Assembly (NCBI GenBank): GCA_020353515.1
Contig: CP070695.1
Span: 2,294,866 to 2,358,865, forward strand
Direction of reading: 5' to 3'
DNA length: 64,000 nt
Source: Candidatus Heimdallarchaeota archaeon
GTDB taxonomy: Archaea > Asgardarchaeota > Heimdallarchaeia > Hodarchaeales > Hodarchaeaceae
Program-made: the position numbers and the translations under genes
Notes under the pieces: generated by a model
Databases searched by the model: none
The model's input: only the letters and a program-made list of their open reading frames with translations
What the model was told of the DNA's origin: nothing
Shown: piece by piece, positions 17,856-20,670 of the stretch
How the letters are laid out: the number at the start of each line of letters is the position of its first letter
Position numbering within the stretch: position 1 is the first letter of the stretch

Positions 17856-18599
17856 ATGACAGTAACAATTTTTCCTCTTCAAGATTTTCCTCTTATTAAT
17901 CCTGGAGATGACCTCGCAGATATTTTGGTAGCCGAATTACGAAAAATATCATTAGAAAATGGCGATATCATTGTCATTGCTCATACTATTGTTTCTAAAG
18001 CGGAAGATAAAGTATACAACCTCGATGAAGTGAATCCGAGCGCTTTCGCTCTGCAAATCGGTGAACTCCAAGAAAAGGATCCTAGAAAGATAGAGGTTAT
18101 TCTTCAAGAGAGCAGCGAGATTATTCGGATGAATGAGCATGTCTTAATAACTGCTACAAAACATGGTTTTATCTGTGCTAATAGTGGCGTAGATAAATCT
18201 AATACTCCTGGTGAGACTGTAGTTGGGCTCCCTGATGATCCTGATTTGTCAGCAAGACGAATAAAGGAGCGAATCCTCCAAGATTTAGGAAAAAATGTAG
18301 CGATCATTATTTCTGATACCTTTGGTCGTCCTCTCAGAGTGGGTACAGTCAATGTTGCCATTGGAGTTGTGGGAATAAATCCTGTTGACGATTTAAGAGG
18401 TCATAAAGACCTTTTTGGATACGAACTAGTTTCAACTGTTGTTGCTAAAGCGGATGAAGTGGCAGCAGCAGCAGGTTTGGTAATGGGACAAGCAGACGAG
18501 GGAACACCAGTCATCATCGTACGTGGGGTAGAATATGCGCAAGTTGATACTTCTGCCAAAATTTTGATCAGGGATCGTCACACAGATGTGTTTCGTTAA
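17856..18599 (+). CDS. cofE: Coenzyme F420-0:L-glutamate ligase
   Basis: PLINPGDDL, IVSKAE, CANSGVDKSN, ISDTFGRPLRVG and MGQADEGTPV. Confidence 0.93.
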   Translation: MTVTIFPLQDFPLINPGDDLADILVAELRKISLENGDIIVIAHTIVSKAEDKVYNLDEVNPSAFALQIGELQEKDPRKIEVILQESSEIIRMNEHVLITATKHGFICANSGVDKSNTPGETVVGLPDDPDLSARRIKERILQDLGKNVAIIISDTFGRPLRVGTVNVAIGVVGINPVDDLRGHKDLFGYELVSTVVAKADEVAAAAGLVMGQADEGTPVIIVRGVEYAQVDTSAKILIRDRHTDVFR

Positions 18600-18681
18600 C
18601 TGATTCTTCTGTCTTTTTTCGCTGTTACATGGAATTCAATTTAAATTCACCACAAAAACTGTTCAAATATAGTAATATTGA

Positions 18682-18783
18682 GCGCCGATAGTCTAGTTTG
18701 GCAGGACTCCAGCCTCCCAAGCTGGTGACCCGGGTTCAAATTCAATCCTCTATTGAGAATTCCTGAAAATCCCGGTCGGCGCA
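18682..18783 (+). tRNA. tRNA-Gly(CCC) with a 29-nt intron at 59/60 (18741-18769)
   Basis: GCGCCGA/TCGGCGC acceptor; ccagc-CTCCCAA-gctgg anticodon arm; T loop interrupted by a bulge-helix motif (TTCA/TGAA helix with AAT bulges). Confidence 0.93.
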
Positions 18784-18811
18784 TCCTCCAAGTCAAGAAA
18801 CTGATGTTGCT

Positions 18812-19102
18812 ATGATAGTTCATCTCCAATTTTTAGGATCTCTACAATATGATTTAAAACAACAATCCTTACCCTTTCAGATTTCTTCAGAGAGATCCTT
18901 GCGAGAAATTGTCTCAGAAATTATACAGGATCCGCAATTCAAGGAACTAAAGAGTTTTTTTTCTGAGTCACTTGAAACTAAACGTTCTCTCTTAGTTTTC
19001 ATTAATCAGCAAGAGATATCAGTATTAAACGGGATGAATACAAAGGTGAAAGGTGAGGATATCATTACTTTCATACCAGTCATTCATGGAGGAGCTTTTT
19101 GA
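18812..19102 (+). CDS. Ubiquitin-like Urm1/SAMP/MoaD family protein ending in GG-AF
   Basis: LVFINQQEI...D.ITFIPVIHGG beta-grasp signature. Confidence 0.88.
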   Translation: MIVHLQFLGSLQYDLKQQSLPFQISSERSLREIVSEIIQDPQFKELKSFFSESLETKRSLLVFINQQEISVLNGMNTKVKGEDIITFIPVIHGGAF

Positions 19103-19129
19103 CAAGATAAATGGTATTTATTGAAGTGA

Positions 19130-20062
19130 TTGAATATGACGATAAATATGAAAGGACGGTCCTTGTTAACACTTAAAGATCTTACTACCGATGAATTTCG
19201 GTTTTTACTTGATGAGACGTTGAAATTCAAAGGAAATAGGGCTCAACATGTGAAGGATCAACCACTAAGAGGAAAAACATTAGGAATGATTTTTCAAAAA
19301 CGATCTACCAGGACTCGTGTATCAACAGAAACAGCAATGGTCGAGTTAGGGGGGCATGCACTGTTTTTAGGAAAAGATGACATTCAATTAGGGGTTAATG
19401 AATCACTATTTGACACAGCGAAAGTTCTAGGTCGCATGGTATCTGGAATTCTTGCCCGTGTTTTTGATCATTCTGATGTAGAAGTGTTAGCTAAACATTC
19501 AGGAGTTCCCGTAATCAATGCGCTCTCAGATCTGTTTCATCCTCTTCAAGGACTAGCAGATGTAATGACGATCGAAGAACATCTTGGGAAATTAAAGGGG
19601 GTTAATATCGCATGGATTGGAGATGGAAATAATGTATGTCATTCTTTGATGATTTCTTCTATAAAAATGGGGATGAATATTCATATTGCAACACCGGAAG
19701 GATATGAACCAGACTCTACCGTGTTTGATTATTGTAAGAATAATGCATCATCATCAGAACAGGTTAGGTTGACTTATGATCCTATTGTAGCAGCAACAGA
19801 TGCGAATGTGGTAGTAACGGACACTTTCATTTCTATGGGTCAAGAGGCTGAAAAACAAGAGAAATTAAAGAAGTTTAAGGGTTTCCAAGTTAATAACCAG
19901 TTAGTACAGCATGCTGATAAGGATTACATATTTCTACATTGTCTTCCTCGTCATGAAGAAGAGGTTACAGATGATGTAATTTATGGTGAGCATTCAGTCG
20001 TTTTCGATGAGGCTGAGAATCGATTACATACTGTGGCTGCAGTATTGAAGAATGTACTATGA
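19130..20062 (+). CDS. argF: Ornithine carbamoyltransferase
   Basis: STRTR, HPLQGLAD, GDGNNV, SMG, HCLPR and EAENR motifs; true start may be a downstream ATG. Confidence 0.96.
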   Translation: MNMTINMKGRSLLTLKDLTTDEFRFLLDETLKFKGNRAQHVKDQPLRGKTLGMIFQKRSTRTRVSTETAMVELGGHALFLGKDDIQLGVNESLFDTAKVLGRMVSGILARVFDHSDVEVLAKHSGVPVINALSDLFHPLQGLADVMTIEEHLGKLKGVNIAWIGDGNNVCHSLMISSIKMGMNIHIATPEGYEPDSTVFDYCKNNASSSEQVRLTYDPIVAATDANVVVTDTFISMGQEAEKQEKLKKFKGFQVNNQLVQHADKDYIFLHCLPRHEEEVTDDVIYGEHSVVFDEAENRLHTVAAVLKNVL

Positions 20063-20163
20063 GCTCCATAATACAAATCTACTTGTCTTAGGAGAAATTA
20101 TTTAAATAATTGAAGTTTCTTTAAAGTCTGAAAAAAAAAGGAAGAATTGACGAGGCTATATAC

Positions 20164-20670
20164 GTGGTTATAACCCCTATTTGTAACTTTTGCGCAAAAA
20201 CTGGAGTATTATGCAAAAAATGCAAACAAAAACTTCGAAAAAAGAAAATCACACAATTAGATGTCGATGTTTCAATTGCTTTCGCAAAAGCTGAACAACG
20301 ATTTCCGAAACAACTTCAAAATGTAATCTTGGATTGTGCACAGAAAGTAAATGGTTCTGTTGTGTTATTAACGCGAAATGGTAATAATATCTTGGAAAAT
20401 GAAGAAATTAAACATTTCATCGAAGACGAAATCAGAAAGCCGATTGAGATTGTTGAAAGAAAGTCTGATACTAGAAAGACTTTTGCAGATTTCTTTGCAC
20501 CACTGGATATTCTCGAAATTGATCAGATTTTTGCTCCTCCTGAAGGTGATATTGAGTTAAAGATCACCTTACGCGGGGATCCAGAGATGCTGAGATATCC
20601 TTTGGATCAGCTTAAACAGATCGCTGAGATGATATCAAAGAATCCTGTACGCTTAGAAATTCAAAACTAG
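20164..20670 (+). CDS. Archaeal NusA-like Zn-finger/KH protein
   Basis: PICNFCAKTGVLCKKC...ITQLDV N-terminus is typical of this archaeal family. Confidence 0.7.
   Translation: MVITPICNFCAKTGVLCKKCKQKLRKKKITQLDVDVSIAFAKAEQRFPKQLQNVILDCAQKVNGSVVLLTRNGNNILENEEIKHFIEDEIRKPIEIVERKSDTRKTFADFFAPLDILEIDQIFAPPEGDIELKITLRGDPEMLRYPLDQLKQIAEMISKNPVRLEIQN

What the first reader, a model, noticed from the sequence alone, without database searches (positions are those of the whole stretch)
19130..20062. Ornithine carbamoyltransferase of the fungal/animal type in an archaeon
Seen: KRSTRTRVSTE, LGKDDIQLGVNESLFDT, TDTFISMG...KLKKFKGFQV and HCLPRHEEEVTDDVIYGEHSVVFDEAENR. From memory, yeast Arg3 reads KRSTRTRISTE, LGKEDIQLGVNES and [29 protein letters not shown], whereas typical archaeal/bacterial ArgF reads KPSTRTRVSFE, QLGRGE and HCLPAHRGEEV. 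The gene has no introns, sits among archaeal genes and shows no obvious compositional break. Inference: the opisthokont urea-cycle/arginine OTC may descend from the Asgard host lineage, or this is a transfer between eukaryotes and archaea.
Basis: partly seen in the sequence, partly recalled or inferred. Interest (0 to 1): 0.8.

Follow-up and report, generated by a model that had tools for sequence, protein, structure and literature searches.

The report
Eukaryote-like ornithine carbamoyltransferase of Hodarchaeales
This is an intact, ordinary ornithine carbamoyltransferase gene of an Asgard (Hodarchaeales) archaeon. It belongs to an Asgard-specific branch of the enzyme family, and the mitochondrial enzyme of animals, fungi and stramenopiles arose from within that branch, a link already proposed at phylum level in a 2026 preprint.

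Summary
The ORF at 19130-20062 (+), probably starting at the ATG at 19136, encodes a complete ornithine carbamoyltransferase (OTC), and every quoted motif is present. The motifs are not chance. KRSTRTR, S-[T/S/A]-E, HCLP-R and a one-residue deletion after HCLP occur in about 80-98% of Asgard-type and eukaryotic "clade 1" OTCs. They occur in about 2-4% of 188 other OTCs.

ML trees (LG+C20) place these sequences in one clade with support 100/98-99. The clade holds four Heimdallarchaeia families, a Helarchaeota-labelled family, and animal, fungal, chytrid, stramenopile and Cercozoa OTCs. No confirmed bacterium was found in it.

Eukaryotes do not sit next to this genome's enzyme. They group with Kariarchaeaceae/LC_2 OTCs (97/93). 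A clade of Hodarchaeales plus eukaryotes alone is rejected (AU 0.027). A clade of all Asgard-type prokaryotes without eukaryotes is also rejected (AU 0.006). This favours an Asgard-to-eukaryote origin. Whether that was host inheritance or a later transfer stays open.

The gene is old in its family: cofE-Urm1-OTC-168aa synteny holds at every family locus with enough flank. Santana-Molina, Spang and Snel (bioRxiv, May 2026) already list OTC as an Asgard contribution. First readers of this scan noted the same motifs in other Asgard genomes.

Physiology is unclear, because argG and carbamoyl-phosphate synthetase are absent.

The parts
19136..20062 (+). Ornithine carbamoyltransferase (argF/OTC) coding sequence. 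The ORF opens at a TTG at 19130; the probable start is the ATG at 19136 (308 aa).
19298..19330 (+). KRSTRTRVSTE: the carbamoyl-phosphate-binding S-T-R-T-R motif with the clade signatures R58 and T66 (classic type: KPSTRTRVSFE).
19379..19417 (+). DIQLGVNESLFDT: the LGVNES signature shared with animal and fungal OTC (classic type: QLGRGE).
19535..19549 (+). FHPLQ: the H-P-x-Q motif with L, where the classic type has C.
19817..19843 (+). TDTFISMGQ: the D-x-x-x-S-M-G ornithine-binding loop motif.
19937..19966 (+). HCLPRHEEEV: the H-C-L-P motif followed by the signature R and a one-residue deletion relative to HCLPAHRGEEV.
17856..18599 (+). CofE-like gene (F420-0:gamma-glutamyl ligase family), part of the conserved gene context.
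18812..19102 (+). Urm1/ThiS-like small protein directly upstream (33 nt before the ATG). It is found at every Hodarchaeales-family locus with enough flank.
20164..20670 (+). 168-aa Cys-rich protein with no Pfam hit, conserved directly downstream of the OTC across the family.

Best explanation
The gene encodes a canonical OTC. The enzyme transfers the carbamoyl group of carbamoyl phosphate to the delta-amino group of L-ornithine, giving citrulline and phosphate, and the reaction is reversible.

The gene has been inherited vertically within its Hodarchaeales family. It belongs to an Asgard-type OTC lineage found in Heimdallarchaeaceae, Kariarchaeaceae/LC_2, Hodarchaeales family f1, a Helarchaeota-labelled family and a few others. 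This lineage diverged from the classic archaeal/bacterial ArgF type. It is marked by KRSTRTR, S-T-E, LGVNES-like, HPLQ and HCLP-R motifs and by a one-residue deletion.

The eukaryotic clade-1 OTC (animals, fungi, stramenopiles; mitochondrial in animals and fungi) arose from inside this lineage, nearest to the Kariarchaeaceae enzymes. The query is therefore a cousin, not the sister, of the eukaryotic enzyme.

Shown here: family membership, the signatures, the clade and the nesting. Inferred: the direction of descent (Asgard to eukaryote). I put host inheritance at about 0.5, an early or later archaeon-to-eukaryote transfer at about 0.3, and other scenarios at the remainder.

Also inferred: in this organism the enzyme probably does not serve classical arginine synthesis, because argG and CPS are missing. 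It may run towards carbamoyl phosphate, using citrulline from an ADI-like enzyme and feeding carbamate kinase and/or PyrB. Alternatively it may make citrulline from carbamate-kinase-derived carbamoyl phosphate.
For: - **Family:** 423 bits against TIGR00658 (cut-off 281), both Pfam domains and all catalytic motifs. Best PDB hits are P. furiosus OTC (4e-100) and sheep/human OTC (about 1e-99).
- **Nearest 50%-identity cluster representatives:** a tunicate mitochondrial OTC (54% identity, 8.5e-94), then fungi and chytrids.
- **Signatures:**

| feature | Asgard-type | eukaryotes | others |
|---|---|---|---|
| R58 | 40/45 | 19/21 | 4/187 |
| S-[TSA]-E | 44/45 | 20/21 | 6/187 |
| HCLP-R | 36/45 | 21/22 | 7/185 |

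  The deletion column is a gap in 65/68 Asgard-type plus eukaryotic sequences; 155/188 others have G there. This column was trimmed out of the 70-row tree alignment.
- **Trees:** the Asgard-type plus eukaryote clade has support 100/99, 100/98 and 98 under LG+G4. Eukaryotes plus Kariarchaeaceae have 92/67, 97/93 and 65 in the same three analyses. Hodarchaeales f1 plus f15 have 100/99.
- **AU tests:** f1 plus eukaryotes as an exclusive clade, p=0.027. Asgard-type prokaryotes as a clade without eukaryotes, p=0.006. Eukaryote monophyly is not rejected, p=0.47.
- **Reciprocal search:** a Kariarchaeaceae OTC finds vertebrate mitochondrial OTCs at 55-59% identity as its best named non-Heimdall hits.
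- **Distribution:** 21/21 genomes of the same genus carry the gene at 74-88% identity. cofE-Urm1-OTC-168aa synteny is conserved.
- **Pathway:** argG is above cut-off in 0/22 genomes. There is no CPS large subunit. Carbamate kinase is present in 20/22. An ADI-like gene is present in 16/22. PyrB is present.
Against: - Overall identity of the query to eukaryotic OTCs (47-55%) is no higher than to some classic prokaryotic OTCs (50-52%). The link rests on phylogeny and signatures, not on raw similarity.
- Support for eukaryotes plus Kariarchaeaceae depends on model and sampling (65 to 97). With the first data set, Asgard-type monophyly was not rejected (p=0.34).
- The groups for the AU tests were named after the trees had been seen.
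- OTC history within Asgard is patchy. Family f2, of the same order, and Heimdall family f7 carry other OTC types. Hodarchaeales f1 groups with a Helarchaeota-labelled family. Transfers among archaea therefore occurred, and strict vertical descent is not shown.
- Eukaryotic clade 1 is known only from opisthokonts, stramenopiles and a few others (PMC5052871), so presence in LECA is not established.
- The carbamate kinase lies beside other transcarbamylase paralogues, not beside this OTC.
Confidence: 0.75

Rival explanations
1. The Asgard-type OTC was acquired from (stem) eukaryotes by horizontal transfer, so the resemblance runs from eukaryote to archaeon.
For: In the best tree Kariarchaeaceae families f5 and f6 interleave with eukaryotic groups, and fungi branch first. 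Taken literally, that could mean a eukaryote-to-Kariarchaeaceae transfer. With the smaller data set, Asgard-type monophyly was not rejected (p=0.34).
Against: - Successive outgroups of the eukaryote plus Kariarchaeaceae clade are all archaeal: the P0107 group on an archaeal contig, Hodarchaeales plus f15, Heimdallarchaeaceae, and f32.
- Asgard-type monophyly is rejected with better sampling (p=0.006).
- Eukaryote monophyly is not rejected (p=0.47), so the interleaving is unresolved rather than supported.
- The archaeal genes carry no presequence, sit in conserved archaeal synteny and lie on contigs up to 633 kb.
Confidence: 0.1
2. This is an ordinary prokaryotic ArgF. The eukaryote-like motifs are convergent or widespread and carry no special evolutionary signal.
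For: Whole-length identity to classic OTCs (50-52%) equals that to eukaryotes. The best PDB hit is P. furiosus OTC, by a hair.
Against: The signatures are near-exclusive to one clade, at 2-4% elsewhere. A shared one-residue deletion that is not a column of the 70-row tree alignment agrees with the tree. The clade has support 100/98-99 in two data sets and 98 under a second model. The nearest 50%-identity cluster representatives are eukaryotic.
Confidence: 0.05
3. Eukaryotic DNA contaminates the assembly, or this genome received the gene recently from a fungus or an animal.
For: None beyond the motif resemblance.
Against: The genome is a single 4.94-Mb contig and GC is typical. The flanking genes are archaeal and synteny is conserved at every family locus with enough flank. 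All 21 genus relatives carry orthologues at 74-88% identity. The query does not nest in fungi or animals.
Confidence: 0.01

Closest known systems
Mitochondrial OTC of animals (human PDB 1C9Y/1OTH, sheep 1FB5) and the eukaryotic 'clade 1' OTCs of Novak et al. 2016 (Metazoa, Fungi, Oomycota, diatoms and other stramenopiles)
   Same: Same fold family and the same catalytic motifs. Shared signatures are KRSTRTR-x-STE, (D)I-x-LGVNES, HP[L/I]Q, HCLPR and the same loop length after HCLP, with no gap in the alignment. Both fall in the same strongly supported clade.
   Different: The query has no N-terminal mitochondrial presequence; the tunicate OTC aligns from its residue 44. The query lies outside the eukaryote plus Kariarchaeaceae subclade. 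Identity is only 47-55%.
OTCs of Kariarchaeaceae / Heimdallarchaeota LC_2
   Same: Asgard-type OTC with the same signatures. Their motif HCLPRKP.EV is the animal form.
   Different: They, not the query, are the nearest archaeal relatives of eukaryotic OTC. They are 55-59% identical to vertebrate OTC and about 54-58% identical to the query.
Pyrococcus furiosus OTC (PDB 1PVV/1A1S), the classic archaeal/bacterial ArgF type
   Same: Best-scoring solved structure (4e-100). Same length, domains and catalytic residues.
   Different: The classic type reads KPSTRTRVSFE, QLRRGE, HPCQ and HCLPAHRGEEV, with one extra residue. It falls in the outgroup part of the tree together with most other Asgard families.
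The OTC tree in Santana-Molina, Spang and Snel, 'Origins of eukaryotic metabolism', bioRxiv 10.64898/2026.05.08.723234 (Fig. 4A)
   Same: It reports OTC, with arcA and argE, as a putative Asgardarchaeota/archaeal contribution to eukaryotic arginine metabolism. That is the same conclusion at phylum level.
   Different: The searchable text names no Heimdallarchaeia or Hodarchaeales lineage (0 occurrences), and no motif or indel signatures turned up in the passages read. The figure itself could not be read here.

Membership tests
Ornithine carbamoyltransferase (EC 2.1.3.3; NCBIfam TIGR00658, Pfam PF02729 + PF00185) | Score above the curated equivalog cut-off, and the two-domain architecture | tested here: met
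   423.2 bits against a cut-off of 280.85. OTCace_N covers residues 10-150 and OTCace covers 156-307.
Ornithine carbamoyltransferase (EC 2.1.3.3; NCBIfam TIGR00658, Pfam PF02729 + PF00185) | Catalytic and substrate motifs S-T-R-T-R, H-P-x-Q, D-x-x-x-S-M-G, H-C-L-P and the AENR arginine | tested here: met
   All are present in the translation and align with human and P. furiosus OTC.
Ornithine carbamoyltransferase (EC 2.1.3.3; NCBIfam TIGR00658, Pfam PF02729 + PF00185) | Not a sister specificity (putrescine, N-acetylornithine, aspartate, YgeW) | tested here: met
   All of those models score below their cut-offs: PTC 291 against 500, AOTC 139 against 288, ATC 131 against 237.
Ornithine carbamoyltransferase (EC 2.1.3.3; NCBIfam TIGR00658, Pfam PF02729 + PF00185) | Measured OTC activity | not testable with these tools
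   No biochemical data are available, and no RNA run was listed.
   UFBoot/SH-aLRT 100/99 and 100/98; SH-aLRT 98 under LG+G4.
   The query carries all of them. The clade frequencies are in the signature counts.
Eukaryotic clade-1 (animal/fungal/stramenopile) OTC | Branches inside, or as exclusive sister of, the eukaryotic clade | tested here: not met
   The query groups with f15 (100/99). An exclusive Hodarchaeales f1 plus eukaryote clade is rejected (p-AU 0.027). Kariarchaeaceae are closer to eukaryotes.
Eukaryotic clade-1 (animal/fungal/stramenopile) OTC | N-terminal organelle-targeting extension | tested here: not met
   The query begins 3-9 residues before the conserved core. Eukaryotic representatives have 350-394 aa and align from about residue 40.
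Anabolic ArgF of a complete arginine pathway | Argininosuccinate synthase (argG) and a carbamoyl-phosphate synthetase in the same genome | tested here: not met
   argG is absent by TIGR00032 and PF00764, with 0/22 genus genomes over the cut-off. No CPS large subunit was found. The argH hit scores higher on the XcbC model.
Catabolic OTC of the arginine deiminase pathway | Arginine deiminase and carbamate kinase partners | tested here: inconclusive
   Carbamate kinase is above its cut-off (369 bits) but lies next to other transcarbamylase paralogues. Only a short 310-aa ADI-superfamily protein was found, far below the arcA cut-off (152 against 489 bits). It is present in 16/22 genomes.

The most novel reading that the evidence does not exclude
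The mitochondrial OTC of animals, fungi and stramenopiles is a host-derived (Heimdallarchaeial) enzyme that was retargeted to the organelle. Its closest surviving archaeal relatives are Kariarchaeaceae rather than Hodarchaeales. This single-gene signal bears on which Heimdallarchaeia lineage is nearest to eukaryotes. It comes with a rare shared one-residue deletion as a marker. Separately, Hodarchaeales keep this OTC although they have no argG and no CPS, so it may work as a carbamoyl-phosphate-yielding (catabolic) enzyme.
Probability: 0.45. Interest if true: 0.6.

Novelty: already known. Interest (0 to 1): 0.4.

Why it matters
OTC is a textbook mitochondrial matrix enzyme of the urea cycle and of arginine synthesis. 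If the gene comes from the archaeal host rather than from the alphaproteobacterial endosymbiont, it is a clear case of host metabolism being relocated into the organelle. It also adds to the growing list of Asgard-derived metabolic genes.

The enzyme itself is ordinary, and the Asgard link has already been proposed in a May 2026 preprint.
- which Asgard families carry the type;
- that Kariarchaeaceae, not this Hodarchaeales lineage, are nearest to eukaryotes;
- a discrete indel and residue signature;
- explicit topology tests;
- the observation that Hodarchaeales keep the enzyme without argG or CPS.

Tried and rejected
- **FastTree, 208 rows:** it put a Saccharibacteria group as sister of the clade. 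The LG+C20 ML trees did not reproduce this.
- **A bacterial member of the clade:** the one candidate was P0113, labelled Candidatus Deferrimicrobium. It was rejected because the sequence is identical to the OTC of Asgard genome G123 and its contig carries aIF-1A and Elp3. It is a mis-binned archaeal contig.
- **Naming of unlabelled relatives:** The listing of cluster members gave no names for most of them (P0123, P0131, P0097, P0104, P0121). P0131 remains unplaced. It has a long branch and sits on a 3.5-kb contig with prokaryote-like gene spacing.
- **First AU test of Asgard-type monophyly (74 rows):** not significant (p=0.34). Only the richer 70-row set rejected it.
- **Expression:** no RNA holder was listed for the locus.
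- **Jobs not run:** no structure prediction or complex prediction, because the family has many solved structures.
- **Sequences not obtained:** Only one plant-type representative was included (P0234, matching PDB 8QEU at 7e-165).
- **Literature:** searches for OTC together with Heimdallarchaeota or with archaeal origin found nothing more specific than the two papers cited.

Full report
**1. Observation**

The window holds one 310-aa ORF at 19130-20062 (+). The ORF opens at a TTG. The identical database protein has 308 aa and relatives align from residue 3. A GAAGTGA string lies 6 nt before the ATG at 19136, so 19136 is the likely start.

The protein is a full-length ornithine carbamoyltransferase (OTC). 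It scores 423 bits against TIGR00658 (cut-off 281). Sister specificities (putrescine, N-acetylornithine, aspartate, YgeW) all fall below their cut-offs, and both Pfam domains are present. The S-T-R-T-R, H-P-x-Q, D-x-x-x-S-M-G, H-C-L-P and AENR motifs align with human, sheep and Pyrococcus furiosus OTC.

GC is 0.389, within the window's range. The genome is a single 4.94-Mb contig, 96% complete.

**2. What kind of OTC it is**

About 95 clusters at 70-90% identity come from MAGs labelled Hodarchaeales, Hodarchaeota or Heimdallarchaeota. A second tier at 58-65% carries Helarchaeota and Heimdallarchaeaceae labels.

Against one representative per 50%-identity cluster of 1.8 billion proteins, the best hit is a tunicate mitochondrial OTC (54% identity, 8.5e-94). 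A basidiomycete, chytrids and a Cercozoa MAG follow.

A search of 400 genomes of the same phylum, followed by motif reading, shows where the eukaryote-like type occurs:
- the query's own family f1 (21/21 genomes, 74-88% identity);
- three further families of the same class: f4, which groups with a Heimdallarchaeaceae-labelled sequence, and f5 and f6; f6 groups with sequences labelled Kariarchaeaceae and LC_2;
- family f15, outside the class, which groups with a Helarchaeota-labelled sequence.

Most other Asgard families carry the classic KPSTRTRVSFE / HCLPAHRG type. Family f2, of the query's own order, has a different OTC at 42% identity. Families f5 and f6 even read HCLPRKP.EV, the animal form.

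**3. Signatures**

In an alignment of 256 sequences:

| feature | Asgard-type | eukaryotes | other OTCs |
|---|---|---|---|
| R58 | 40/45 | 19/21 | 4/187 |
| S-[T/S/A]-E instead of S-F-E | 44/45 | 20/21 | 6/187 |
| HCLP-R | 36/45 | 21/22 | 7/185 |

The residue that is G in 155/188 other OTCs is deleted in 65/68 Asgard-type plus eukaryotic sequences. This indel column was trimmed out of the 70-row tree alignment, so it is independent support. The condition "widespread in bacteria" is therefore not met.

The single bacterial label in the group (Deferrimicrobium) sits on a contig with aIF-1A and Elp3. Its sequence is identical to that of an Asgard genome.

**4. Phylogeny**

I ran IQ-TREE under LG+C20+F+G4 (PMSF).
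- A 142-row quick tree, a 74-row careful tree and a 70-row careful tree with more animals and Kariarchaeaceae all recover one clade of Asgard-type plus eukaryotic clade-1 OTCs. Support is 96 in the quick tree, then 100/99 and 100/98. An LG+G4 control gives 98.
- Inside this clade, the query's family is sister to the f15 group (100/99).
- Eukaryotes (animals, fungi and chytrids, stramenopiles, Cercozoa) group with f5/f6 Kariarchaeaceae. Support is 92/67, then 97/93; the LG+G4 control gives 65.
- The next outgroup is an unnamed archaeal group whose contig carries Pelota, an archaeal histone and an Urm1 gene next to the OTC.

AU tests:
- Hodarchaeales f1 plus eukaryotes as an exclusive clade is rejected (p=0.027).
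- Eukaryote monophyly is not rejected (p=0.47).
- A clade of all Asgard-type prokaryotes without eukaryotes was not rejected with the first set (p=0.34) but is rejected with the richer set (delta lnL 44, p=0.006).
- The groups for these tests were named after the trees had been seen, so the p-values are indicative only.

A reciprocal search with a Kariarchaeaceae OTC from a 633-kb contig returns vertebrate mitochondrial OTCs at 55-59% identity as its best named non-Heimdall hits. The plant-type OTC lies far away in the classic part of the tree.

**5. Interpretation**

The nesting of eukaryotes among successive archaeal outgroups favours an Asgard (Heimdallarchaeia) origin of eukaryotic clade-1 OTC.
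- The reverse direction would need several eukaryote-to-archaeon transfers.
- Contamination or a recent transfer into this genome is excluded. The cofE-Urm1-OTC-168aa synteny is conserved at every family locus with enough flank, and the genome is closed.
- Host inheritance and a later transfer are not resolved. Clade 1 is known mainly from opisthokonts and stramenopiles, while other eukaryotes carry two other OTC clades (Novak et al. 2016, PMC5052871).
- OTC history within Asgard is patchy (f2, f7, and the f1-f15 grouping), which shows that transfers among archaea occurred.

**6. Function in this organism**

- argG is absent from the closed genome and from all 22 genomes of the genus.
- No carbamoyl-phosphate synthetase large subunit was found.
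- The argH hit scores higher on an XcbC model.
- Carbamate kinase is present in 20/22 genomes. It lies beside two divergent transcarbamylase paralogues.
- A short ADI-superfamily protein is present in 16/22 genomes, and PyrB is present.

The OTC therefore probably does not feed classical arginine synthesis. I consider a carbamoyl-phosphate-yielding (citrulline-cleaving) role somewhat more likely (about 0.55) than citrulline synthesis from carbamate-kinase-derived carbamoyl phosphate. Neither role is shown.

**7. Novelty**

The enzyme family is textbook and the orthologues are already annotated as OTC. The evolutionary link is listed in Santana-Molina, Spang and Snel (bioRxiv, May 2026), which names OTC, arcA and argE as putative Asgardarchaeota contributions. 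First readers of this scan noted the same motifs in other Asgard genomes.

New here are the family-level resolution (Kariarchaeaceae nearest; Hodarchaeales not), the indel and residue signature, the topology tests, and the missing argG/CPS context.

Noticed in passing
window 17856-20670: The gene order cofE-like, Urm1/ThiS-like (96 aa), OTC, 168-aa Cys-rich protein (no Pfam hit) is found at every Hodarchaeales-family locus with enough flank. A distant archaeal contig (L183) also has an Urm1-like gene and a 31%-identical homologue of the 168-aa protein next to its OTC.
   Followed up: partly
G000:C1:4828490-4836423 (outside the window): The carbamate kinase (4829553-4830518) is flanked by two divergent carbamoyltransferase paralogues (338-374 aa). 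The one that was scanned (4828490-4829503, 338 aa) falls below every NCBIfam cut-off, with N-acetylornithine carbamoyltransferase best at 221 bits against 288. This may be a separate carbamoyl-phosphate-yielding catabolic module.
   Followed up: partly
G000 whole genome and 21 genomes of the same genus: argG is not detectable in any of the 22 genomes and no CPS large subunit is found in G000. OTC, PyrB, carbamate kinase and an argH-like lyase are present. The argH-like protein scores higher on the XcbC (coenzyme M synthesis) model.
   Followed up: partly
L186/L187 (NCBI DATKTP010000172.1, labelled Candidatus Deferrimicrobium): This contig, labelled bacterial, carries aIF-1A and Elp3. Its OTC is identical to that of an Asgard genome (G123). 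It is probably a mis-binned archaeal contig.
   Followed up: yes
L151/L152 (G079, G078; family f2, same order as the window's genome): The sister family in the same order carries a quite different OTC (42% identity, HCLPRTEHEI). It groups with OTCs of other Asgard families (f22, f24, f25), which indicates OTC replacement within the order.
   Followed up: partly
P0458 (EukProt transcriptome contig): An ORF from a eukaryotic transcriptome, 277 aa and 69% identical to a Kariarchaeaceae OTC, groups with the archaeal f6 clade. It is either archaeal contamination of the transcriptome or a recent transfer.
   Followed up: no
L019/L102 (G065:C1:2080885-2081610; CP070760.1): In one closed Heimdall-labelled chromosome the OTC match starts only at query residue 68-70, yet it lies in a 577-aa open frame. 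This could be a truncation or a fusion.
   Followed up: no
L110, L167, L168 (family f4 genomes G019, G011; also G037, G049): Several Heimdallarchaeaceae OTC matches are reported with one in-frame TAA. I did not check whether it lies at the gene end or inside the gene.
   Followed up: no
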